Assembly: GCA_051873775.1 (NCBI GenBank)
Contig: JBJEFF010000154.1
Coordinates: 1-29,034, forward strand
Source: Allobaculum sp.
GTDB taxonomy: Bacteria > Bacillota_I > Bacilli_A > Erysipelotrichales > Erysipelotrichaceae
DNA length: 29,034 nt
Direction of reading: 5' to 3'
In this document: positions 1,288 through 25,901 of the stretch, in pieces
Numbering within the stretch: position 1 is the stretch's first letter
Layout: every line of letters starts with the position of its first letter
Notes under the pieces: generated by a model
What the model was told of the DNA's origin: nothing
Databases searched by the model: none
Seen by the model: the letters and a program-made list of their open reading frames with translations, nothing else
Made by a program: the position numbers and the translations under genes

Positions 1288-3239
1288 TTACTCACCGCCT
1301 AATTCATAACTTTGCATCGGAGCTTTGACGACATGAATTCTCTGCTGCAGTTCACTTTGCAAAATCAGATCTTCATTGTCATCAAACAGGTGGAGGTCAA
1401 AGCCGGCAGCCCGGTTAACCTGAATCGTCAGCAGCTGACGCAATGCTTCAAACTGTTTGTACTGCATCGTTCCCATATATTCATGCATCGAAATAATCTC
1501 GACCTGTGGAAAATGCTGTTCCGGTTTTTCCAGATAGTCATAGATCGAAATGGATCTGGATTCTAACTGTTTTGCATTCGTCTCCTTACCCTGGAAAATA
1601 TACAGTCCGGTAATTTCATCTTCAGCCGCAATCGGCGAGATCGAAAACAGATAGCGATAGACAAGCGGAATTACTTTATAGTCTTTAACATTCTGATAAG
1701 ACGAATACTTGGCATCTCCGATGATGTAGCGGGCACCTTTCCAGTATCGGCTTTCCAGTTTAAGGATATAGTCCGGCGTGTAGTAGTGGCCTTTAGCAAT
1801 TTCACCCCAACCTCTAGGGAATGAGAGCGAAGTATTGCGGACCAGACCGGTTTTTACACACTCCGGATTCCCCGGTTCATAGATTACCGGTTCATAGTAA
1901 AGTGTAATTTTAACGTCTTTCTTTTCAAATTCGAAGTAGTTGTTCACTTCGGAATTCTGATAGAAATAAGCTTCGTTTTTGTCATATAGAACTTTATGAC
2001 TCGTGAGTAAGGTAAATCCGTTCTCTTTCATAAAATCCCCGAGTTTGGAAAGCACGTAGACTTCATACAGATTCGTGATCTGCAGAAATGCGGTCGCAAA
2101 ACGGATATCCCCTGCCGTGACATTCTTGAGCGCAAACCAGTTCTGAATTTCACTGAATACCTGACGGTACCCGCGGTTTCTCGCAAAGACAGGAGTCATT
2201 TTGGGTGGGGTGCTTAAATACTGCTCACGAGCCGGAATGATTTTTTCAAACATGCCGTGCAGACGATGGAATCCTACCTGAAGGTGTTGAATATCTTCTT
2301 TAAGATGGTTCAGGGTCAGAATTGTGGCCTTTGACATATAGACCGAGGAAGAGACATAACCTTTTTCCACTTCGAGTTTTTTGGGCAGCGTATCAATCAG
2401 CTGTTCAATTTCCACAGTCAGTCCAGCCAGTTCACGATTTATTGTGTTTAAAAACGAAAGAATAACCCGATTTTCATAGGTATCCGTACTGAGTGTTTTT
2501 GTCTGTATCATCCGTGTTGTAGGACTAAATGAATCACCGGCAACACGGGCGACACCCGGATTCGGCAAAGAAAGCGTATTAGGATGTCTTGTCATCTCCT
2601 TCATGCGACTATAGCTTACCATGGAACGGCTCGGAGATTTTTCTTCCTGAAATGCGCGGTTTGCCTGAATTTCACGCAGCGCAGATTCCATCAACACCGT
2701 GCAGCGTTTCAGCAGGCGGACCTTATCTTCAAGGGAATGCTGGGATTCAGCACACTGATCGTCGCACCGCATATAGTCGGCATTCGTTCCGTACAGCAGC
2801 AAGTCGCTATGCAATGCGGTGTATTTGCCGATCGCATTGGCATTGAAATTCTCCGGTCCGGGATGAACCATCACCTGGATATACGGGGTGACGAGACGAC
2901 AGTTTCCTTCTTTGCAGCGAAAGCTCAGCTCGATCTTTGCCAGCCCGAAGGAGTCGGCAAAGATACGGCTGTTGTTGTAAGGGTCGTAAAAGTAGATGCG
3001 GCCGGTATTGCCATGATAGGTGTTATTGACCGCATAGCCATTGACGAAAAATCAATGGAGCTGATATCGGACGTGATCGGAGACAGAAGCTGTCCGATAT
3101 AACTGCTGTTCGCAAAGATTTTCTGATCGGGAAGCTGAATCACTTTACTGATCGGCTGAACCTGTTTTGCGTCAAACAGGTCCAGTTCAATCAGATCCTG
3201 ATTCGCTTCGTCCATCAGACGAAGTCGGAATTCTCTCAT
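1288..3239 (-). pseudogene. McrC-like PD-(D/E)xK nuclease subunit (DUF2357/McrC family), interrupted by a +/-1 frameshift at an A5 run (3047-3051)
   Basis: The main ORF 1288-2874 (GTG start) carries a textbook C-terminal PD-(D/E)xK motif: YTPDYILKL...ARYIIGDAKY. Its frame stays open upstream to 3051 (…FFVNGYAVNNTYHGNTGRIYFYDPYNN…). A second ORF starts at an ATG that overlaps the stop of the upstream mcrB-like gene (ATGA at 3236-3239). It reads MREFRLRLMDEANQDLIELDLFDAKQ…SSIDF up to the same A5 run. Inserting one base in the run joins the two ORFs into one protein of about 650 aa. Confidence 0.65.
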
Positions 3240-5890
3240 TGTTCGAAATACTGGTAGTACTGCATGGATTCGTCTCCGTGTCTGAGTATGGCATCCAGTT
3301 TTGCCTTACTCATAGTTAGGTGATTCGTTTCCAGGCACTGTCCGATTCTGACTAAGACATTGCGGTAGCCGATCGAAGTGCCGTTAATCTGGGTCATCAT
3401 TCTCTGCAGAATCGCAAAGTCTAAGGCGATCAGTGCACTGTTGCGAAGAACATTTCCTTCTTCATCCGTTTCATCATCAAACCATCTAGCCGCATTGAGA
3501 ATATAGCGGCGAATGGCCTGATCGCTTCGGCGGGAGAGATACGTTCCAGCCTGAGCGAAGGCTTCACAAACGTTCTGATAAACAGATTCGAGATCGGAGG
3601 CAAGGTCAATATGAGTTGTATCGATATTGAACGCTCTGGCAAGCTGATCTTCGTTAAAGAGCTCGTCTGTTAAATGCAGCAGTTTTACCTTTTCATGCAG
3701 ATTTTCCTGATGCGGATGATCCGGCATGTTAATGACGAATGCACGGTCAAGCAGTCTTGCGGAAATTGGTTCGAACGACTGATCCGTCTGTATCGTAGCC
3801 GCAAAATGGAGCGCATCCGGAATCTGATAATTATAATTTTCACCGAGTTTGAGCGTACCGCGTATGAATCCGTGCGGCTTATCCCCTTCGTCGAGAACCA
3901 GTTCTGGTGTTTCCTGCATCGCCATAAAATCCGACCAGTAGTATTCCATATGAGAAAGGTTGGCATCATCGAGCATAATGAGTGCCGGAAGCATGCTTTC
4001 CTTCAGATTACGGCTTTGAATATTCAGAATGGAAAGCAGGTCAAATAATTGCGGATTCATTTTTTCAAAACTGTGCGTCAGTGAATTATAGAAGCCGATA
4101 AAGTCACGGGAATTCACCCAGCCCCGTTCCACCTGTACACGCACGAACCGGCTGCAGTTCATCATGCCCTCGTACTGGGATTCGACAGAGCGCGGTTTTT
4201 CAAGATTGAGAACTTCACGGACAATTTCCAGGGTACTCGATTTACCTGAACCAACCGGTCCCGTAAATAGTGTCATAAAGCTCTGATGCAGACAGATGAT
4301 GATATTCAGAATCTCATTGCGTGAGTAATCCGGACGGTATGCCGCAAAATTATGCACCAGCAGATTGACCATGCTTTCCGGATCAAGAACAGAAACGGGT
4401 AAGGCATTTATCAGACGGGCAGCCTGTACGCTGGACTGTTCAAGCAGCAAGCGTGCACGTTTTTCACTCTGTTCGCCGATGCGCTGGCTGATAATATGAT
4501 CGACACTCATCTCGAGTGCCTTATTAGCCGAACGTTCCAGAAGCTGATCCACCTGATTATCCAGATCGCGCAGCTGAGCTTTGAGCACATCACTTTCTTT
4601 CTGCATCCGTTCATTTTCCAGACGGAGCAGTGAGCTCTGCTTTTCAAGCTGTTCAACTTCACTCGCGAGATTGGCGGTTTTCAGTGTTTTCTTCAGCCGG
4701 TCTTCCGCCTGATTCTGCAGGCGCTGCAGTTCGGCGAGCGAGTTGCGGTAATTCTCAATTTTTCTGCTTGCTTCCAGTGTTGCAAGTTCACTGACCTGAG
4801 TTCTCAAATCCTGTTCAAGCTCTTTAAGATCGGCTACCTGTTCTTCCAGCTCCGTTTTCTGTTCATATAACGGCTTGAACGAATCAATCGAATGCAGGAA
4901 GTGATCGTCATGCGCAAGCGCATCGATCATCGTCGCATAGACCGGATCGTCCTTATACTGGACAAATAGCTCTCCGGCAAGTTTAGAAATCATGTCGAGT
5001 GTTTCGTCAAAATCAATTTTGGTTTTCAGCACAGTAAAGAGTTTGTTCTTACGTGCTTCTGCTGCTTCCTGAGAGAAATTATTCGGGGACAGCAGCCAGT
5101 TCTGATACACCTCCACCATATGGCGAGCACTATCTTCATTAAAGCGGTAATTTTTCGACATGCGCTTCTGGGTCAGTGTGCGCAGATCTTCAACTAATTC
5201 AGAGATAGTAATTTCATCGTAAATATAAGGTTCAACATTTTCACCGCCGACCTGCAGATAGGTTCGGGTTACATCTTCCTGTTCAAGCAGAACGGAATGA
5301 CGGAGAAGTCCGTCGGTAAACTGATAGCCGCGGATCACTTTATTCTGCGCATCCGCATTGCACCGTACAAAAATTACATTGTTAATTTCGTCGTAATGAA
5401 CTTTAAACGGTCCGATTACCACGTTTGGAATGTCACAGGCGAGCAATACCTCCATATTTTCATTAATGTTATTGCTGTCGATCTCAATACGGTTATCCGT
5501 GCGCCAGTCGCCGATCTGATACTTGCGATCCACCAGGCAGTAGCAGCCCAGTTCTTCCATGCGTCTTATTTTTCTGCCGTAAAGCTCGGCAATATCCAGT
5601 TTCCATGCACTCGGATATCTCGTACCGTCTATTTTGCAGTTAGGGAGTAAATCTTCCGTATCAAAATCAAGAATAAAATCGTCACCGTCCTGAAATATGT
5701 CCTCTAAAGAAATCAGACTGGAACTCGAAACTAAATTAATGTTCTGGTAAACCGAATTCGGTAAAAGCACTTCTAAATCCTGTCTGGTTAAATAATCAAA
5801 TTCCTGGTCATGATATAAATAGCCGGGATAAAAATTGACATAAAAACCGTTTCGCGTATTGATTTTAATTTCGCCAACATACGCTGCCAT
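3236..5890 (-). CDS. McrB-like AAA+ GTPase (AAA_5) with an N-terminal domain of about 330 aa (unknown function) and a central coiled coil; CoCoNuT/McrBC-like defence component
   Basis: Walker A LFTGPVGSGKSSTLEI. A Walker B block LIMLDDANLSHMEYYW…MQE and a downstream HFAATIQTDQSF…RLLDRAFVINMPD block align with McrB IIDEINRANLSKVFGE… and IIGLMNTADRS…RRRFSFIDI. An E/Q/L-rich heptad-like stretch of about 130 aa (ELEEQVADLKELEQDLRTQVSELATLEASRK…) lies N-terminal to the ATPase. RBS aaggtg. Confidence 0.75.
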   Translation of the reverse strand: MAAYVGEIKINTRNGFYVNFYPGYLYHDQEFDYLTRQDLEVLLPNSVYQNINLVSSSSLISLEDIFQDGDDFILDFDTEDLLPNCKIDGTRYPSAWKLDIAELYGRKIRRMEELGCYCLVDRKYQIGDWRTDNRIEIDSNNINENMEVLLACDIPNVVIGPFKVHYDEINNVIFVRCNADAQNKVIRGYQFTDGLLRHSVLLEQEDVTRTYLQVGGENVEPYIYDEITISELVEDLRTLTQKRMSKNYRFNEDSARHMVEVYQNWLLSPNNFSQEAAEARKNKLFTVLKTKIDFDETLDMISKLAGELFVQYKDDPVYATMIDALAHDDHFLHSIDSFKPLYEQKTELEEQVADLKELEQDLRTQVSELATLEASRKIENYRNSLAELQRLQNQAEDRLKKTLKTANLASEVEQLEKQSSLLRLENERMQKESDVLKAQLRDLDNQVDQLLERSANKALEMSVDHIISQRIGEQSEKRARLLLEQSSVQAARLINALPVSVLDPESMVNLLVHNFAAYRPDYSRNEILNIIICLHQSFMTLFTGPVGSGKSSTLEIVREVLNLEKPRSVESQYEGMMNCSRFVRVQVERGWVNSRDFIGFYNSLTHSFEKMNPQLFDLLSILNIQSRNLKESMLPALIMLDDANLSHMEYYWSDFMAMQETPELVLDEGDKPHGFIRGTLKLGENYNYQIPDALHFAATIQTDQSFEPISARLLDRAFVINMPDHPHQENLHEKVKLLHLTDELFNEDQLARAFNIDTTHIDLASDLESVYQNVCEAFAQAGTYLSRRSDQAIRRYILNAARWFDDETDEEGNVLRNSALIALDFAILQRMMTQINGTSIGYRNVLVRIGQCLETNHLTMSKAKLDAILRHGDESMQYYQYFEQ

Positions 5891-6044: not shown

Positions 6045-6087
6045 TTTGCGAAAACCAAAAAGAAAACCCACTCGCACTGGAGTGGGC
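6045..6087 (-). terminator. Rho-independent terminator downstream of guaB
   Basis: On the - strand, a 7-bp stem cccactc / gagtggg is followed by gttttctttttggtttt. Confidence 0.6.
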
Positions 6088-17420: not shown

Positions 17421-17450
17421 GGGCACTGATATTTCATCAGTGCTCTTTTG
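17421..17450 (+). terminator. Rho-independent terminator after ppk
   Basis: Stem gcactgat / atcagtgc, loop atttc, then tctttt. Confidence 0.6.
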
Positions 17451-17475
17451 GTATTGTGCAAAAAATTGGTACAAT
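17448..17475 (+). promoter_or_regulatory. Putative sigma-A type promoter for the downstream hypothetical gene
   Basis: -35 TTGGTA (17448-17453), 16-nt spacer, then an extended -10 TGgTACAAT (17467-17475). It lies about 70 nt upstream of the RBS-supported ATG at 17544. Confidence 0.4.
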
Positions 17476-17543
17476 CAAAACCGATCCTTAATAAGACCGG
17501 AGTCCAAAACAGACTCCAATGGCATAAGAAGGGAGAACAGATT

Positions 17544-18779
17544 ATGAATAAAAAAGAACTTGGCGAACTGAAAAAACAGTTAAAGTACGATAACGATAAA
17601 CTCTACCTGAAAGGCATTCAGGAAGGCTACGGCCGCTGTAATGACGGCGAGCCGGTTGTCCGCTTTACCCGCCTGATCAACGGCGAAACACTCGAAAAAG
17701 AAGAAGGCGAACTTTATTTTGACATTTTTAAAAAGAGTCTGTCCGGAACCTATGGCAAGAACCTGATCGAATACGGATTTGACAATGGCGATCCCCAGGC
17801 CAAAAAGCTGCAGGAAACTTTCTTTGACTACAAGAACGGTTCTCTTTTAAAAGAAGAAGAATTCCAGGCACTTGTTCAGGAATTACTGGTGAAAGGCGAC
17901 TACCGCAATCCGGTTTATATTACCGCCGGCATTTTCGAATATGCCGCACCGGGCTTAAATGCGAATAATGAGATCCTTGAAGAAAACTCGGTTTTCCGCT
18001 TCATGATCGTTGCGGTATCCGAAGCAAAACTCACTGAAATTGGTCTCTACTATAACCATCAGACCAATGAAGTCCAGCGCAAGGTCAACGATGAAATGCA
18101 GATCGTGCCACAGCCATTAGATGCATTCCTCTATCCGTCTTTCAGCGGACGTGCAAGTGATGTCAACCATTTCCTCTATCACTCCAAAACCGCAAAGAAA
18201 CCGAATATTGAATTAATCGAAGAATATTTCCATATTCCGTTTATCAGTTCTGCTCCGGAACAGACCGAGGGATTTGCGAAAGTCATTGCCGATGTCTTCC
18301 CGAAAGGAATGGAAACAAAAACAGCTCTCAAATTCCATGAAAACCTCTCTGACTACATTGCCGAGAACAGCGAAGAAGACTCTATGGTCATGATGGACAA
18401 GTCCCGCATTAAAGACCTGCTCGTAGCATCCGGTGCCCGTGAAGAAAATATGCGCTTCTTTGATTCTTCCTTTACGAAGATTCTCGAAGATCAGGAAGTT
18501 GCCGCAATCAACCTGATGGAGAAAGGTAAAGTTTCTCTGAAGGCTCCTTCTATATCGATCTCGATTAAAGATGATGCCCTTGAACATGTCAAAACCAGAA
18601 ACATCGATGGCCACAACTGCCTCGTGATTGAAATGGACGACGGTCTGGAAATTTCCGGTTTACCGGCTAACCTTCTGCAGCCGGCAAAATCTGTTCACGT
18701 CATTCAGCCAGCTTCTCAGATCCCGGCAGCAGAACCTGCAAGTACAGAAACGCCTGACCTGACACAGTCTTTGGAATAA
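17544..18779 (+). CDS. Conserved hypothetical protein (about 411 aa; possibly DUF4317-like, unverified)
   Basis: The long ORF has uniform coding character. An internal ATG at 17544 is preceded by a GGGAG RBS (aagggagaacagatt ATG). The ORF-track start at 17448 lies inside the ppk terminator/promoter and is rejected. No motif I can name. Confidence 0.55.
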   Translation: MNKKELGELKKQLKYDNDKLYLKGIQEGYGRCNDGEPVVRFTRLINGETLEKEEGELYFDIFKKSLSGTYGKNLIEYGFDNGDPQAKKLQETFFDYKNGSLLKEEEFQALVQELLVKGDYRNPVYITAGIFEYAAPGLNANNEILEENSVFRFMIVAVSEAKLTEIGLYYNHQTNEVQRKVNDEMQIVPQPLDAFLYPSFSGRASDVNHFLYHSKTAKKPNIELIEEYFHIPFISSAPEQTEGFAKVIADVFPKGMETKTALKFHENLSDYIAENSEEDSMVMMDKSRIKDLLVASGAREENMRFFDSSFTKILEDQEVAAINLMEKGKVSLKAPSISISIKDDALEHVKTRNIDGHNCLVIEMDDGLEISGLPANLLQPAKSVHVIQPASQIPAAEPASTETPDLTQSLE

Positions 18780-23078: not shown

Positions 23079-24233
23079 CTAGCGCGGACGAGGTGTGCCG
23101 CAGCAGTCACAGAAATTTCCTGTGTTTGTTGAATTGCAGTTCGGGCAGATCCATGAACCGCTGTTCATGGCAGTATTATTGAAAGAAGCATTGTTATTCA
23201 TCTGCGGATTATTCGGCTGACCATATCCCGTCTGGGAATTGTTCATCATTCCGTTATTCGGCTGACCGTATCCCATCTGAGAATTATTCATCATGCCGTT
23301 ATTCGGCTGACTGTATCCCATCTGAGAATTGTTCATCATTCCGTTATTCGGCTGACCGTATCCCATCTGAGAATTGTTCATCATTCCGTTATTCGGCTGA
23401 CCGTATCCCATCTGAGAGTTATTCATCATACCGTTATTCGGCTGACCATATCCCATTTGCGGATTGTTCATCATGCCGTTATTCATCTGACCATTATTCA
23501 TCATTCCGGCACCATAGCCTTGTGCCATCTGAGTTCCATAACCGTTCTGACCTGCCGACATGCCATAAGCTAAACCGTTTAATGTTTGACAGATTTCATC
23601 AGCCAACCGTTTATACTGCTGGTATTCCAGGTTGTAAGAAGGATCGAAACCCATAGGTCTTCCAAAGGATGAACTTCCCATGCCGTGGTTCATGAATCCT
23701 GAACCTTCAGAGATGATTTCGACACTGCTCGGATTAATCTGGAATTTCATTTCATCAAAGAATTCGTTTTTGACCGTTACGACGATATCGAAATCATAAC
23801 TGTATCTGAAACGAGGCGGATTATAGCTGACTTTGTTGCCATCCTTGTCTTCTCGTTTCAGTTCTGTGTGTCTTTCATCAATGGATAAGTTGCAGCTCGT
23901 CAGATCAGTAAAGTTGAGAATATCCGGATTCGCTTCTGCGAGGTTTCTTGCCCGTGTTACAGTGAACCAGCGATGATTGTCATCGATCAGAACACGCCAG
24001 TTTTCACCGAGCTGACGGGTAATCTGAAACTGAGCCACTTTCTTCTTGTTTTCTTCACGGTAGTCCAGCTGCTTTTTAATATCAGCAACGGTCGAATGGC
24101 GGCGTTCATTAAACCAGATTGAAAGCTTTCCTGCACAGTTTTTACAGAGATTGCCATCTTCCAATTTGCGGTTGCCGAGCATTCCAATTTTGTCGCCGCA
24201 GATATCGCAGTATTTTTTATCAAAAAAGCCCAT
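23079..24233 (-). CDS. Zinc-ribbon protein: N-terminal CxxC…CxxC ribbon, central domain, (GYGQPNNGMMNNSQM)x6 low-complexity repeats, C-terminal ribbon
   Basis: N-terminal YCDICGDK…CKNCAGK. C-terminal WICPNCNSTNTGNFCDCCGTPRP. The repeats span aa 255-335. Confidence 0.6.
   Translation of the reverse strand: MGFFDKKYCDICGDKIGMLGNRKLEDGNLCKNCAGKLSIWFNERRHSTVADIKKQLDYREENKKKVAQFQITRQLGENWRVLIDDNHRWFTVTRARNLAEANPDILNFTDLTSCNLSIDERHTELKREDKDGNKVSYNPPRFRYSYDFDIVVTVKNEFFDEMKFQINPSSVEIISEGSGFMNHGMGSSSFGRPMGFDPSYNLEYQQYKRLADEICQTLNGLAYGMSAGQNGYGTQMAQGYGAGMMNNGQMNNGMMNNPQMGYGQPNNGMMNNSQMGYGQPNNGMMNNSQMGYGQPNNGMMNNSQMGYSQPNNGMMNNSQMGYGQPNNGMMNNSQTGYGQPNNPQMNNNASFNNTAMNSGSWICPNCNSTNTGNFCDCCGTPRPR
23206..23505 (-). 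repeat. 45-bp direct tandem repeat, about 6.5 near-identical copies, in-frame coding (15-aa G/N/M/Q-rich unit)
   Basis: The unit ccgttattcggctgaccgtatcccatctgagaattgttcatcatt is read at 23206-23250, 23251-23295 and onward to about 23505, with 1-4 mismatches per copy. Confidence 0.9.
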
Positions 24234-24389
24234 TTGTTTCCTCCTTTTCCATGACGGACAGGATCGCGGGCAGGCTGGGCGGGAATGTCTTTAGAAAGGA
24301 TAGTTTTAGAACACAACGGTTTGCTTCCAACCTGCCAGGACCCTTTTTACTGTTTAATGAATAAATGACTGAATGTTCAGAATGTGAAA

Positions 24390-25901
24390 CTATACAGCAC
24401 CGTTGTCATCAAACGGGTCGCCGCATTCCGGACAGAATTTAGGCGGATGAGTCGGATCTGCCGGTTCCCAGCCGCATTTATTACACTTGTATTTCTTTAT
24501 AGCTTCCGGTTTTTTCGTTCCGCACTCAGAGCAGAATTTTCCCTGGTTTACGGCACCGCAGGTCGGGCATGTCCATCCTGCCGGTTTATCTTCCGGTTTC
24601 TTTGTTCCGCATTCCGGGCAGAATTTTCCGGTTGCATTTGCTCCGCAGGTCGGACAGATCCATCCTGCCGGTTTTGGTTCCGGTTTTTTCGTTCCGCATT
24701 CCGGGCAGAATTTTCCGGTTGCGGTTGCTCCGCAGGTCGGGCACGTCCAGCCATCAGCCGGTGCAGGTGCCGGAGTCGGTGCCTGCGCAGCCTGCTGCAT
24801 CTGCTGTTTTTGCTGTTCTAACTGCTGCTGCTGAAGCTGCAGCTGTCTTTGCTGTTCTTCAAGCTGCTTTTGCTGTTCCTGCTGCTGACCCATCGCATAC
24901 ATATTCTGGGCAGCACCGAATCCGCCGTTGCCCATCATGCCATTCGCCATGCCCATGCCCATGAAACCAGTCATTGCACCAGCTGTATTACCAGCTGCGG
25001 TCTGCATCGCATTTGCGGTTGCATCGGTCATACGACCTGCCATCATCTGAGCGCTGGAACCAAAAGTAGCTGCATCTTCGATTTCCTGAACTTTCTTCAT
25101 ATCTTCGTCGGTCAGACGGATCGGGTTCAGAGAAATGGTCTGGATGGTTACACCGCGTTCGCCCCAGCTTTCCTGAAGCTCGGCGTTCATTGCTTTTTTC
25201 AGATCTTTTACTTTTGACGGAATCTGAGCCGGACGGAGTTCCTCTTCAGCCAGCACACCGACTGCAGGCTGGAGAGCGTCCATGAAGTCTGCCTTGAGCT
25301 GTCCGTCAATATTGTCACGGGTATATTCCTCAGCTACGTTGCCGCAAATTCGTGTATAGAACAGCAGCGGATCGGAAATGGTATAGGTATAGACACCGTT
25401 GAAACGGAGATTTACCGTACGGCGCATATTGATCGCTTTATTAACGACTTCGAAAATAATCGGTGCCGGAGTTCCGAATTTGTTGTCGAGAATTTCCTTG
25501 GTATTGAAGTAGTAAACTCTCTGATCCATCGGTGCTTCTCCACCGAAAGTGAATCGTTTACCGACGGTCGCAAAGCTCTGTTTTAAGCTTTCACCGAAAC
25601 TTCCGGCAAAAATTGAAGGTGATGTCGTCGAATCGTAGGTATATTCGCCTGGTTCTGCGCAGACTTCCACGACTTTTCCCTGTTCGACGATCATCATGCA
25701 CTGACCATCTGCAACGGCGATGACAGAACCATTCGAAATAATGTTGTCATTGCCTTTTGTATTGCTCGAACGTTTGGATGTCCGTTTCTTGCCTTTTGTT
25801 GCTAATACATTTGGCGGCAGCGATTCACAGTAGAAGTACTCCTTCCACTGATCGGCTAAAACTCCGCCACCGGCTCCCATTGCCGCTTTAATGAGTCCCA
25901 T
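24390..25901 (-). CDS. SPFH (band-7-like)/COG4260 YdjI-like protein with a Q-rich coiled coil and four C-terminal zinc ribbons
   Basis: The N-terminus MGLIKAAMGAGGGVLADQWKEYFY and about 300 aa are typical of the COG4260 'virion core protein'/SPFH family. Next come QQQEQQKQLEEQQRQLQLQQQQLEQQKQQ, then 3x GW(T/I)CPTCGAxATGKFCPECGTKKPE and KCNKCGW…FCPECG. RBS gggagg. Confidence 0.6.
   Translation of the reverse strand: MGLIKAAMGAGGGVLADQWKEYFYCESLPPNVLATKGKKRTSKRSSNTKGNDNIISNGSVIAVADGQCMMIVEQGKVVEVCAEPGEYTYDSTTSPSIFAGSFGESLKQSFATVGKRFTFGGEAPMDQRVYYFNTKEILDNKFGTPAPIIFEVVNKAINMRRTVNLRFNGVYTYTISDPLLFYTRICGNVAEEYTRDNIDGQLKADFMDALQPAVGVLAEEELRPAQIPSKVKDLKKAMNAELQESWGERGVTIQTISLNPIRLTDEDMKKVQEIEDAATFGSSAQMMAGRMTDATANAMQTAAGNTAGAMTGFMGMGMANGMMGNGGFGAAQNMYAMGQQQEQQKQLEEQQRQLQLQQQQLEQQKQQMQQAAQAPTPAPAPADGWTCPTCGATATGKFCPECGTKKPEPKPAGWICPTCGANATGKFCPECGTKKPEDKPAGWTCPTCGAVNQGKFCSECGTKKPEAIKKYKCNKCGWEPADPTHPPKFCPECGDPFDDNGAV
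24503..24755 (-). repeat. 87-bp tandem repeat x3, each unit encoding a zinc-ribbon motif
   Basis: The units are about 24503-24589, 24590-24677 and 24678-24755 (…ttccgcattccgggcagaattttccggttgc…gctccgcaggtcgg…). They account for the spurious + strand ORFs here. Confidence 0.85.

What the first reader, a model, noticed from the sequence alone, without database searches (positions are those of the whole stretch)
1288..5890. McrBC-like two-gene defence module with a coiled-coil McrB (CoCoNuT-like), flanked by housekeeping genes
Seen in the sequence:
- An 884-aa protein whose C-terminal half is an unmistakable McrB-type AAA+ GTPase. Its Walker A is GPVGSGKS. Its Walker B/sensor blocks LDDANLSHMEYYW and HFAATIQTDQSF…RLLDRAFVINMP parallel McrB DEINRANLSKVFGE and IIGLMNTADRS…RRRF.
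- It is followed, with an ATGA start/stop overlap, by a protein of about 650 aa with a C-terminal PD-(D/E)xK nuclease motif (PDYILKL…IIGDAKY), the McrC arrangement.

Unlike canonical McrB (short N-terminal DNA reader, then the GTPase), this protein has an unknown N-terminal region of about 330 aa, then a coiled coil of about 130 aa, and only then the GTPase. From established knowledge, coiled-coil-fused McrB homologues paired with McrC homologues were recently grouped as CoCoNuTs (coiled-coil nuclease tandems) and are thought to be defence systems. I cannot assign a CoCoNuT type by eye.

No methyltransferase is nearby. That fits a type IV or abortive-type system rather than a restriction-modification system. 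The pair is inserted between an SDR gene and guaB, so it is an accessory insertion.
Basis: partly seen in the sequence, partly recalled or inferred. Interest (0 to 1): 0.8.

Follow-up and report, generated by a model that had tools for sequence, protein, structure and literature searches.

The report
Coiled-coil McrBC-like gene pair, nuclease frameshifted
Next to guaB in a mouse-gut Allobaculum genome sits a rare two-gene restriction-like module (a coiled-coil AAA+ NTPase plus a nuclease) of the recently described CoCoNuT/McrBC kind. It is real but not a new kind of system, and in this copy a one-base deletion breaks the nuclease gene.

Summary

**Downstream gene (C).** It is not one ORF here. 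A 1-nt deletion at window 3050/3051 splits it into 104-aa and 528-aa pieces. Twelve other contigs of the same species (99.7-99.9% identical) have an intact 650-aa gene.

**B is McrB-like.**
- Its own Pfam hits are weak, with no AAA_5 hit.
- A family profile aligns with CoCoNuT Type I-A CnuB (hhalign 99.4-99.5%, E 1e-21 to 5e-23) and with E. coli McrB (94.7%, E 6e-8).
- The family has the NxD signature of the CoCoNuT clade. The window's small clade has QxD, and DD instead of DE in Walker B.

**C is McrC-like.** It has DUF2357 plus a PD-DxK nuclease with intact catalytic residues.

**Pairing.** B-C adjacency holds in 11 of 13 genome loci from diverse bacteria.

**Unresolved.** The N-terminal ~200 aa of B is family-specific and its fold could not be determined.

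**Not a recent insertion.** The pair is present in all 10 same-species contexts examined. It is also syntenic beside guaB in two further genome lineages with 89%-identical GuaB.

**Verdict.** A new variant of a known kind, of moderate-to-low interest.

The parts
3236..5890 (-). Gene B: 884-aa coiled-coil McrB-like AAA+ NTPase (CnuB-like), intact
   Evidence: ORF. Family profile aligns with Type I-A CnuB and E. coli McrB. PADLOC PDC-M26A hit.
5246..5890 (-). B aa 1-215: family-specific N-terminal domain of unknown fold, beta-rich in a low-confidence model; presumed target sensor
   Evidence: Exhaustive HMM search found 114 clusters, and every one checked is a B-family protein. No Pfam hit. hhalign against CspA/CspB and Type I-A CnuB N-termini found nothing. 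The AF2 model has pLDDT 46.8 and is unusable.
4871..5245 (-). B aa 216-340: helical linker region shared with more distant family members
   Evidence: phmmer hits to P0061, P0068 and P0074 over aa 208-338. Helices in the low-confidence AF2 model.
4475..4870 (-). B aa 341-472: predicted coiled coil
   Evidence: No Pro or Gly across aa 341-471 and about half of residues are E/K/R/Q/D. Profile hits to the ClpB M-domain, tropomyosin and keratin. JetC/MukB-like PADLOC hits over aa 330-487.
3239..4408 (-). B aa 495-884: AAA+ NTPase domain with lid and C-terminal helical region
4238..4261 (-). Walker A GPVGSGKS (family consensus GEPGTGKTS)
3965..3970 (-). Walker B D641-D642. The family has DE in 183 of 188 members; DD occurs only in the window's small clade.
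3782..3790 (-). Q701-T702-D703 at the position of the family's NxD (sensor-1) signature. NxD is found in 184 of 188 members.
1288..3239 (-). Gene C: McrC-like (CnuC-like) gene, disrupted here. The pieces are 2925-3239 (104 aa) and 1288-2874 (528 aa, different frame). The intact form is 650 aa.
3047..3051 (-). Frameshift site: one base missing (window 3050/3051) relative to 12 of 12 other contigs of the species
2155..2616 (-). C aa 209-362 (intact numbering): DUF2357 (McrC N-terminal domain) match
   Evidence: Pfam E 0.0026, below cut-off for this protein. 22 of 32 homologues match, best E 5.6e-8. hhalign against Type I-A CnuC gives 93.8%.
1687..2070 (-). C aa 391-518: PD-(D/E)xK nuclease. E393, P489-D490 and D509-A510-K511 are invariant across the family.
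   Evidence: PDDEXK_7 scores 21.9 bits against a cut-off of 22.1. 20 of 32 homologues match. Invariant columns. Coordinates.
6066..6087 (-). Terminator-like hairpin after guaB, upstream of B, suggesting that B-C is its own transcription unit
   Evidence: consensus scan only

Best explanation
This is a two-gene McrBC-family module of the NxD, coiled-coil branch (CoCoNuT Type I-like: CnuB plus CnuC).

**Shown here**
- B has an AAA+ NTPase domain of the McrB/MoxR/dynein clade, preceded by a ~130-aa predicted coiled coil and a ~200-aa family-specific N-terminal domain.
- C has a DUF2357 (McrC N-terminal) domain and a PD-DxK nuclease with intact catalytic residues.
- The two genes overlap (ATGA) and travel together in unrelated bacteria.

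**Inferred from solved E. coli and Thermococcus McrBC complexes and from Bell et al. 2024**
- B forms a hexameric ring.
- The DUF2357 domain of C inserts into the ring and stimulates NTP hydrolysis.
- The N-terminal domain of B recognises the target nucleic acid (modified DNA or RNA).
- The coiled coil positions or couples these sensors or rings.
- The PD-DxK domain of C cleaves the target, giving methylase-independent (type IV or abortive-type) defence.

**In this genome**
- The C gene carries a 1-nt deletion at codon 63/64, so the nuclease is probably not made here unless the deletion is an assembly error.
- In this clade, B has conservative replacements of two catalytic residues (Walker B E to D, sensor-1 N to Q). 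These may slow or retune hydrolysis.
For: **B**
- hhalign of the family ATPase profile against Type I-A CnuB TBC54486.1 gives 99.4% (E 1e-21). Against RGK31155.1 it gives 99.5% (E 5e-23). Against E. coli McrB it gives 94.7% (E 6e-8), aligning Walker A, Walker B and the Nx(x)D region.
- Family motifs are GEPGTGKTS, ILLDEANLSP and ATINxDHTTExLSPRxxDRA. NxD is present in 184 of 188 members.
- PADLOC PDC-M26A hits 6 of 6 B proteins, best E 1.4e-29.

**C**
- DUF2357 matches 22 of 32 homologues and PDDEXK_7 matches 20 of 32.
- E393, PD490 and D509xK511 are invariant.
- hhalign against Type I-A CnuC gives 93.8%.

**Linkage and selection**
- C directly follows B in 11 of 13 loci from Lachnospiraceae, Blautia, Sutterella, Hathewaya, Hallella, Coriobacteriaceae, Clostridia, Fibrobacter and others.
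- One locus lies beside a Dcm/NgoMIV restriction-modification system.
- Within the species, B shows 15 synonymous and 5 nonsynonymous segregating sites.
- B and C are 40-48% identical between lineages whose GuaB is 89% identical. Fast evolution of this kind is typical of defence genes.

**Experimental precedent**
- A type II CoCoNuT-like locus protected Pseudomonas against RNA phages and one DNA phage (bioRxiv 10.64898/2026.04.06.716636).
Against: - No experiment exists for any Type I CoCoNuT or for this family. Defence is inferred.
- The window protein itself hits no McrB/AAA_5 Pfam model.
- The window protein has QxD, not the 'strictly conserved' NxD of the clade, and DD instead of DE.
- The CSD/YTH domains that typify Type I CnuB and the Ig-like domain of CnuC were not demonstrated.
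- Neighbours of family members are mostly housekeeping genes, so defence-island enrichment is weak.
- The pair is fixed at one chromosomal site across related lineages rather than variably present.
- The C profile against E. coli McrC reaches only 20% probability.
Confidence: 0.7

Rival explanations
1. Domesticated, non-defence chromosomal function. The B-C pair in Allobaculum and relatives is a long-resident NTPase-nuclease with a cellular role, such as RNA or DNA quality control or a stress response. Its hydrolysis chemistry has been retuned (DD/QxD) so that it acts as a slow switch.
For: - The pair is present in all 10 same-species contexts of the identical GuaB.
- It occupies the same position beside pulA-guaB in three lineages with 89%-identical GuaB.
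- G+C content is not deviant.
- B shows within-species purifying selection, 15 synonymous versus 5 nonsynonymous sites.
- The catalytic E to D and N to Q changes are confined to this clade.
- Flanks elsewhere are mostly housekeeping genes.
- Bell et al. proposed a non-defence stress role for Pseudo-Type I-B CoCoNuTs.
Against: - B and C diverge far faster than their neighbours (40-48% versus 89% for GuaB).
- The family has a sporadic, cross-phylum distribution typical of mobile defence genes.
- Disruptive alleles recur in the population: the window frameshift, an IS insertion in B, and an indel at C codon 9. That argues the genes are dispensable.
- The nuclease catalytic residues are intact.
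Confidence: 0.15
2. The frameshift in C is an assembly or consensus error of this MAG, so the system is intact in the organism.
For: - All 12 other contigs of the species have the base.
- The window comes from a metagenome-assembled genome.
- The indel lies next to a short T/A run.
Against: - It is the only indel unique to the window in 16.6 kb, and the only one inside a gene. The other indels are intergenic and shared among contigs.
- Independent disruptive alleles exist in other samples: an IS in B in L023 and a 1-nt indel at C codon 9 in L030/L032. Real loss-of-function alleles are therefore plausible.
- The reads were not available.
Confidence: 0.4
3. B is a MoxR-type AAA+ chaperone-like ATPase unrelated to restriction, and C is an unrelated nuclease that merely happens to be adjacent.
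For: - Some homologues are labelled 'MoxR-like ATPase' by JGI.
Against: - The B-C pairing is conserved in 11 of 13 loci across phyla.
- C carries DUF2357, the McrB-ring-binding domain.
- B has the McrB-type DEANLS Walker B and NxD signature and aligns with CnuB at E 1e-21 to 5e-23.
- No VWA partner typical of MoxR lies next to the pair in the window.
Confidence: 0.03

Closest known systems
CoCoNuT Type I-C (Bell et al. 2024, eLife 13:RP94800): CnuB = CSD-YTH-coiled coil-McrB(NxD); CnuC = Ig-McrC_N-PD-DxK; two genes only
   Same: - Two-gene operon.
- N-terminal ~200-aa extension, then a coiled coil, then an NxD-type McrB-like NTPase in B.
- DUF2357 plus an apparently active PD-DxK nuclease in C.
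- No helical insert between Walker B and NxD (spacing 28-57 aa).
- No zinc ribbon in C.
   Different: - CSD and YTH folds in the B N-terminus were not demonstrated; the AF2 model was unusable.
- The Ig-like N-terminal domain of C was not tested.
- The window protein has QxD and DD.
- No Type I-C reference sequence was available, so direct similarity and phylogenetic placement are untested.
[quoted passage not shown]
   Same: - Strong profile similarity of the NTPase domain (E 1e-21 and 5e-23).
- Similarity of the DUF2357 region (93.8%).
- Coiled coil N-terminal to the NTPase.
- Two genes.
   Different: - No ~120-aa helical insert between Walker B and NxD.
- The N-terminal domains show no profile similarity.
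- C is short (650 aa), without the CoCo-CSD-CoCo insert, and has no cysteines in its C-terminal tail, so no zinc ribbon.
E. coli K-12 McrBC (type IV restriction; NxxD McrB GTPase plus McrC)
   Same: - Overlapping B-then-C gene order.
- PD-DxK motif in C.
- No cognate methylase.
   Different: - McrB has a small N-terminal 5mC-reading DNA-binding domain and no coiled coil.
- McrB has an NxxD signature rather than NxD.
- McrC is 348 aa, and only its nuclease motif region aligns weakly (20%).
PADLOC candidate system PDC-M26 (model PDC-M26A)
   Same: The A-gene HMM hits all six B proteins tested (best E 1.4e-29; window protein 1.2e-8 over aa 345-661).
   Different: - No PADLOC model hits any of 32 C homologues.
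- No literature on PDC-M26 was found. Whether this is the same system is unknown.
MoxR/RavA AAA+ ATPases
   Different: MoxR proteins lack the NxD/DEANLS signatures, are partnered with VWA proteins rather than DUF2357 nucleases, and have no coiled-coil N-terminal extension.

Membership tests
McrBC family (McrB-like GTPase + McrC) | AAA+ fold of the McrB/MoxR/dynein (AAA_5) clade | tested here: met
   [not shown]
McrBC family (McrB-like GTPase + McrC) | Sequence homology to a characterised McrB across Walker A, Walker B and the signature motif | tested here: met
   hhalign of the family profile against E. coli K-12 McrB: 94.7%, E 6.3e-8, 236 columns.
McrBC family (McrB-like GTPase + McrC) | [quoted passage not shown] | tested here: not met
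   The window protein has Q701-T702-D703. The family has NxD in 184 of 188 members. QxD occurs only in 4 proteins of the window's clade.
McrBC family (McrB-like GTPase + McrC) | Walker B hhhhDE | tested here: not met
   The window has LIMLDD. DE is found in 183 of 188 family members and DD only in the 5-member clade. The change is conservative and its effect is unknown.
McrBC family (McrB-like GTPase + McrC) | Adjacent partner with a DUF2357 (McrC N-terminal) domain | tested here: met
   DUF2357 matches 22 of 32 C homologues, best E 5.6e-8. The window protein is below cut-off (17.5 versus 23.3 bits). hhalign against Type I-A CnuC gives 93.8%. Adjacency holds in 11 of 13 loci.
McrBC family (McrB-like GTPase + McrC) | PD-(D/E)xK nuclease with catalytic residues in the partner | tested here: met
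   PDDEXK_7 scores 21.9 bits against a cut-off of 22.1. 20 of 32 homologues match. E393, P489-D490 and D509-A-K511 are invariant. In this window the gene is frameshifted upstream of the domain.
McrBC family (McrB-like GTPase + McrC) | Hexameric ring, with NTP hydrolysis stimulated by the C subunit | not testable with these tools
   Needs biochemistry or a multimer structure prediction.
CoCoNuT (Bell et al. 2024) | GTPase belongs to the NxD branch | tested here: inconclusive
   The family-level NxD motif and the strong hhalign match to Type I-A CnuB support it. The window protein itself has QxD. No phylogeny with reference clades could be built, because only truncated Type I-A sequences were available.
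CoCoNuT (Bell et al. 2024) | Long coiled coil fused N-terminal to the GTPase domain | tested here: met
   aa 341-471 contain no Pro or Gly and are rich in charged residues. The region gives coiled-coil profile hits. This is a prediction only; no dedicated coiled-coil predictor or confident structure was used.
CoCoNuT Type I-A | Helical insert in CnuB between Walker B and NxD; CnuC with a CoCo-CSD-CoCo insert and a zinc ribbon | tested here: not met
   Walker B to NxD spacing is 56 aa in the window protein and a median of 44 in the family. In Type I-A the hhalign alignment shows large gaps there. C is 650 aa with a Cys-free C-terminus.
CoCoNuT Type I-C | CSD-like OB fold and YTH-like domain at the CnuB N-terminus | tested here: inconclusive
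   [not shown]
CoCoNuT Type I-C | Ig-like beta-sandwich at the CnuC N-terminus | not tested
The N-terminal 130 aa of C did not align with Type I-A CnuC.
PADLOC PDC-M26 | Hit to the A-gene model and to its partner gene(s) | tested here: inconclusive
   The A model hits 6 of 6 B proteins. No PADLOC model hits C. The composition of PDC-M26 is not documented in the searchable literature.

The most novel reading that the evidence does not exclude
The Allobaculum-clade B proteins may be a retuned McrB-like NTPase. The Walker B Glu is replaced by Asp and the sensor-1 Asn of the NxD signature by Gln.

The gene shows mostly synonymous variation within the species and stays at one chromosomal site beside guaB across related lineages. 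Together with its ~200-aa N-terminal domain of unknown and possibly new reader fold, it could act as a slow-hydrolysing switch with a domesticated or self-directed (abortive or stress) role. That would differ from a classical mobile restriction system.
Probability: 0.12. Interest if true: 0.6.

Novelty: new variant of a known kind. Interest (0 to 1): 0.33.

Why it matters
- No Type I CoCoNuT or NxD-type McrB has been characterised biochemically.
- This family is compact (two genes) and has an apparently active nuclease.
- It offers natural variants at the two residues thought to position the catalytic water (DE/NxD versus DD/QxD). That makes it a convenient system for testing how the signature motif tunes McrB-type hydrolysis.
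- The ~200-aa N-terminal domain may be a further nucleic-acid reader.
- The population data show an intact allele, a frameshift, an IS insertion and a 5' indel. They illustrate the turnover of such a system in a gut commensal.
- None of this changes the picture of what such systems are.

Tried and rejected
1. **Direct Pfam, NCBIfam and PDB sequence searches of B** gave only P-loop and coiled-coil noise. They were not used for assignment.
Repeating it with an ATPase-only profile found 154.
4. **hhalign of the N-terminal profile** against CspA/CspB and Type I-A CnuB N-termini found nothing.
5. **Programmed -1 frameshifting at the T5 run** was considered and rejected. All other strains have an uninterrupted gene with an extra base.
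6. **The empty-site search** found none among 10 contexts of the identical GuaB.
7. **The genome-collection scan** used motif patterns that do not match the window's own clade (QxD, GKS). It therefore found only 9 distant loci and none of the closest relatives.
8. **Type I-B, I-C, II and III reference sequences** were not retrievable, because the supplement is truncated.
9. **A literature search for PDC-M26** returned nothing.
10. **The defence-island test of neighbours** found only a few restriction-modification or candidate defence genes among 51 flanking proteins.

Full report
**What is in the window**

On the minus strand, an 884-aa ORF (B) runs from 5890 to 3236. Its stop overlaps, as ATGA, the start of a second reading frame at 3239.

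That second frame stops after 104 aa at 2925. The remainder of the expected gene (1288-2874, 528 aa from a GTG) is in another frame. The two frames meet at a T5 run at window 3047-3051, and inserting one base restores a 650-aa protein.

Two metagenome contigs that encode the identical B protein (L007, L008; 99.8% identical DNA) have an intact 650-aa gene. They read GATATTTTC where the window reads GAT-TTTTC. Ten more contigs of the same species, found through the identical GuaB protein, also carry the extra base.

**Source and context**

The flanking GuaB, pullulanase and SDR proteins are recorded at NCBI as 'MAG: Allobaculum sp.' on a 29,034-bp contig.

- All 10 contexts of the identical GuaB show pulA-guaB-B-C-SDR, so no empty site was found.
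- Two further genome lineages keep the pair in the same place after pulA-guaB: loci L001-L006, and L009/L010 from GCA_029782595.1.
- Between the three lineages GuaB is 89% identical and PulA 62-74%, but B is only 41-48% and C 40-45%. The order of relatedness is the same for all four proteins.
- G+C content across the pair is like that of the flanks.

The pair is therefore an old resident that evolves fast, not a recent insertion. A terminator-like hairpin follows guaB at 6066-6087, so B-C is probably its own transcription unit (consensus scan only).

**Is B a McrB?**

The window protein alone gives no AAA_5/McrB hit in Pfam or NCBIfam, only weak P-loop matches. The full-length search found two clusters, probably because coiled-coil word matches filled the candidate cap. 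A profile of the ATPase part found 154 clusters.

The family consensus is GEPGTGKTS, VERGWTSKRDFIGYYNPLT, ILLDEANLSPxEYYWADF and RFLATINxDHTTExLSPRLxDRAWVI. This is a McrB-like Walker B (DEANLS versus DEINRANLS) with an NxD signature.

Bell et al. 2024 (PMC11090510) define a major McrB branch by exactly this shortening of NxxD to NxD. Within that branch they define the coiled-coil-fused CoCoNuT clade.

- hhalign of the family profile against two Type I-A CnuB sequences from their Supplementary file 3 gives 99.4% (E 1e-21) and 99.5% (E 5.4e-23).
- Against E. coli K-12 McrB it gives 94.7% (E 6.3e-8), with Walker A, Walker B and the signature motif in register.
- An AF2 model of aa 495-884 is confident (pLDDT 90.8, pTM 0.91).
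- Foldseek puts McrB at rank 4, among dynein and MCM.

The fold alone does not separate MoxR from McrB. The motifs, the CnuB alignment and the partner gene do.

**Catalytic residues**

Of 188 family members in which both motifs could be read, 183 have Walker B DE and 184 have NxD. Only a five-member clade (the window protein, P0002, P0190-P0192) has DD, and four of those five have QxD. The window protein has D641-D642 and Q701-T702-D703.

[quoted passage not shown] Within the species, B shows 15 synonymous and 5 nonsynonymous segregating sites (small numbers). The protein is therefore probably functional, though perhaps with altered kinetics.

**Other parts of B**

- aa 341-471 lack Pro and Gly and are about half charged or polar. 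They hit the ClpB M-domain, tropomyosin, keratin and JetC/MukB-like models. This is a predicted coiled coil of about 130 aa.
- aa 216-340 are helical and shared with more distant members.
- aa 1-215 form a family-specific domain. An exhaustive HMM search of 1.84 billion representatives found 114 clusters. All 39 that were aligned have the family ATPase, and the domain sits either at the N-terminus or after 50-580 extra residues.
- This domain has no Pfam match and no profile similarity to CspA/CspB or to Type I-A CnuB N-termini.

Bell et al. detected the CSD and YTH domains of Type I CnuB only by structure comparison. The question of CSD-YTH versus another fold therefore stays open.

**Is C a McrC?**

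The repaired or intact protein scores just below threshold for PDDEXK_7 (21.9 versus 22.1 bits) and DUF2357 (17.5 versus 23.3).

- Forty-seven homologue clusters were found. Of 32 aligned, 22 match DUF2357 (best E 5.6e-8) and 20 match PDDEXK_7 (best E 1.2e-6).
- E393, P489-D490 and D509-A510-K511 are invariant, so the nuclease looks active.
- The profile aligns with a Type I-A CnuC over the DUF2357 region (93.8%, E 1.7e-7). It aligns only weakly with E. coli McrC (20%).
- The C-terminus has no cysteines, so there is no zinc ribbon. Longer homologues carry acidic low-complexity tails.

**Linkage and distribution**

Every C homologue examined is preceded by a B-like gene. A genome scan found the family in Lachnospiraceae, Blautia, Sutterella, Hathewaya, Hallella, Coriobacteriaceae, Xenorhabdus, Clostridia and Thiotrichaceae. 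That count is a lower bound, because the search patterns did not fit the window's own clade.

C immediately follows B in 11 of 13 loci. Neighbours are mostly housekeeping genes. One locus sits beside a Dcm/NgoMIV restriction-modification system, and a few PADLOC candidate genes occur nearby.

PADLOC's PDC-M26A model hits 6 of 6 B proteins (best E 1.4e-29; window protein 1.2e-8). No PADLOC model hits C, and I found no literature on PDC-M26.

**Classification**

The organisation matches the two-gene Type I CoCoNuTs: N-terminal domain, coiled coil and NxD-type NTPase in B, with DUF2357 and an active PD-DxK nuclease in C.

Type I-A is excluded. There is no helical insert (Walker B to NxD is 56 aa here, with a family median of 44), and C lacks the CoCo-CSD-CoCo insert and the zinc ribbon.

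Type I-C is the closest description, but its CSD-YTH and Ig-like domains were not verified. No Type I-C reference sequence was available. The window protein itself departs from the 'strictly conserved' NxD.

I therefore call it a new variant of a known kind rather than a member of a named subtype.

**Mechanism**

The shown and inferred steps are listed under Best explanation. Shown here are the domain content, the homologies, the gene linkage and the intact nuclease motif.

The rest is inferred from the solved McrBC complexes and from Bell et al.:
- B forms a hexameric ring.
- The DUF2357 domain of C inserts into the ring and stimulates NTP hydrolysis.
- The N-terminal domain of B recognises the target.
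- C carries out the cleavage.

A type II CoCoNuT-like locus has been reported to protect against RNA phages and one DNA phage. No Type I system has been tested, to my knowledge.

**State of this copy**

The 1-nt deletion at codon 63/64 of C is unique to the window among 13 sequences. It is the only window-specific indel in 16.6 kb.

Other samples carry other perturbing alleles. L023 has a 1.87-kb IS insertion with a 6-bp duplication in B codon ~25. L030 and L032 have a 1-nt indel at C codon 9. A real null allele is therefore plausible, but an assembly error cannot be excluded without the reads.

Noticed in passing
L023:10832-12702 (equivalent to window 5813-5818): In sample SRR14721810 a 1.87-kb IS (DDE_Tnp_1 transposase, 516 aa) is inserted in B at about codon 25, with a 6-bp target duplication. 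The gene caller then reports an 873-aa B starting in the IS end.
   Followed up: partly
window 3212 (L030, L032): Two samples (SRR6338738, SRR6338730) lack one base at C codon 9. The called C gene then starts inside the 3' end of B and is 668 aa. This is a second independent perturbation of C in the population.
   Followed up: partly
L001:7188-9729: In the lineage of loci L001-L006, a Zip transporter gene and a 404-aa gene with no Pfam match lie between guaB and B. Whether the 404-aa protein belongs to the system is unknown.
   Followed up: no
P0004, P0005, P0008, P0010, P0013 (C homologues); P0023, P0030: Closest C homologues are 770-1136 aa because of long acidic, low-complexity C-terminal tails that the window's C lacks. 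Two more distant homologues hit RNA_pol_A_CTD (helix-hairpin-helix-like) at the C-terminus.
   Followed up: partly
P0211, P0215, P0220, P0223, P0228, P0257, P0275 and others: About a third of proteins sharing the B N-terminal domain carry a further 170-580 residues in front of it. No Pfam match was reported in the summary scan.
   Followed up: no
L012:1204-4731: In one metagenome locus the B-C pair follows directly after an HTH regulator, a Dcm-type methylase, an NgoMIV-type restriction enzyme and a 475-aa unknown gene. This is a small defence island.
   Followed up: partly
window 1288-5890 versus flanks (within-species alleles): Segregating sites among up to 12 sequences (window plus up to 11 contigs): B has 15 synonymous and 5 nonsynonymous; C has 4 synonymous and 9 nonsynonymous. 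C may be under relaxed or diversifying selection, but the numbers are small.
   Followed up: partly
L009:2075-5091 versus L010:3574-5091: Two contigs of assembly GCA_029782595.1 carry the same B-C pair. One of them has two tandem IMPDH genes (532 and 447 aa) where the other has one (505 aa). This is either a duplication or an assembly artefact.
   Followed up: no
window 23079-25901 (-) and 17448-18779 (+): Adjacent genes encode a DUF4428 protein and an SPFH/Band-7 protein with a double zinc ribbon. Further along is a DUF4317 protein. They are unrelated to the finding as far as seen.
   Followed up: no
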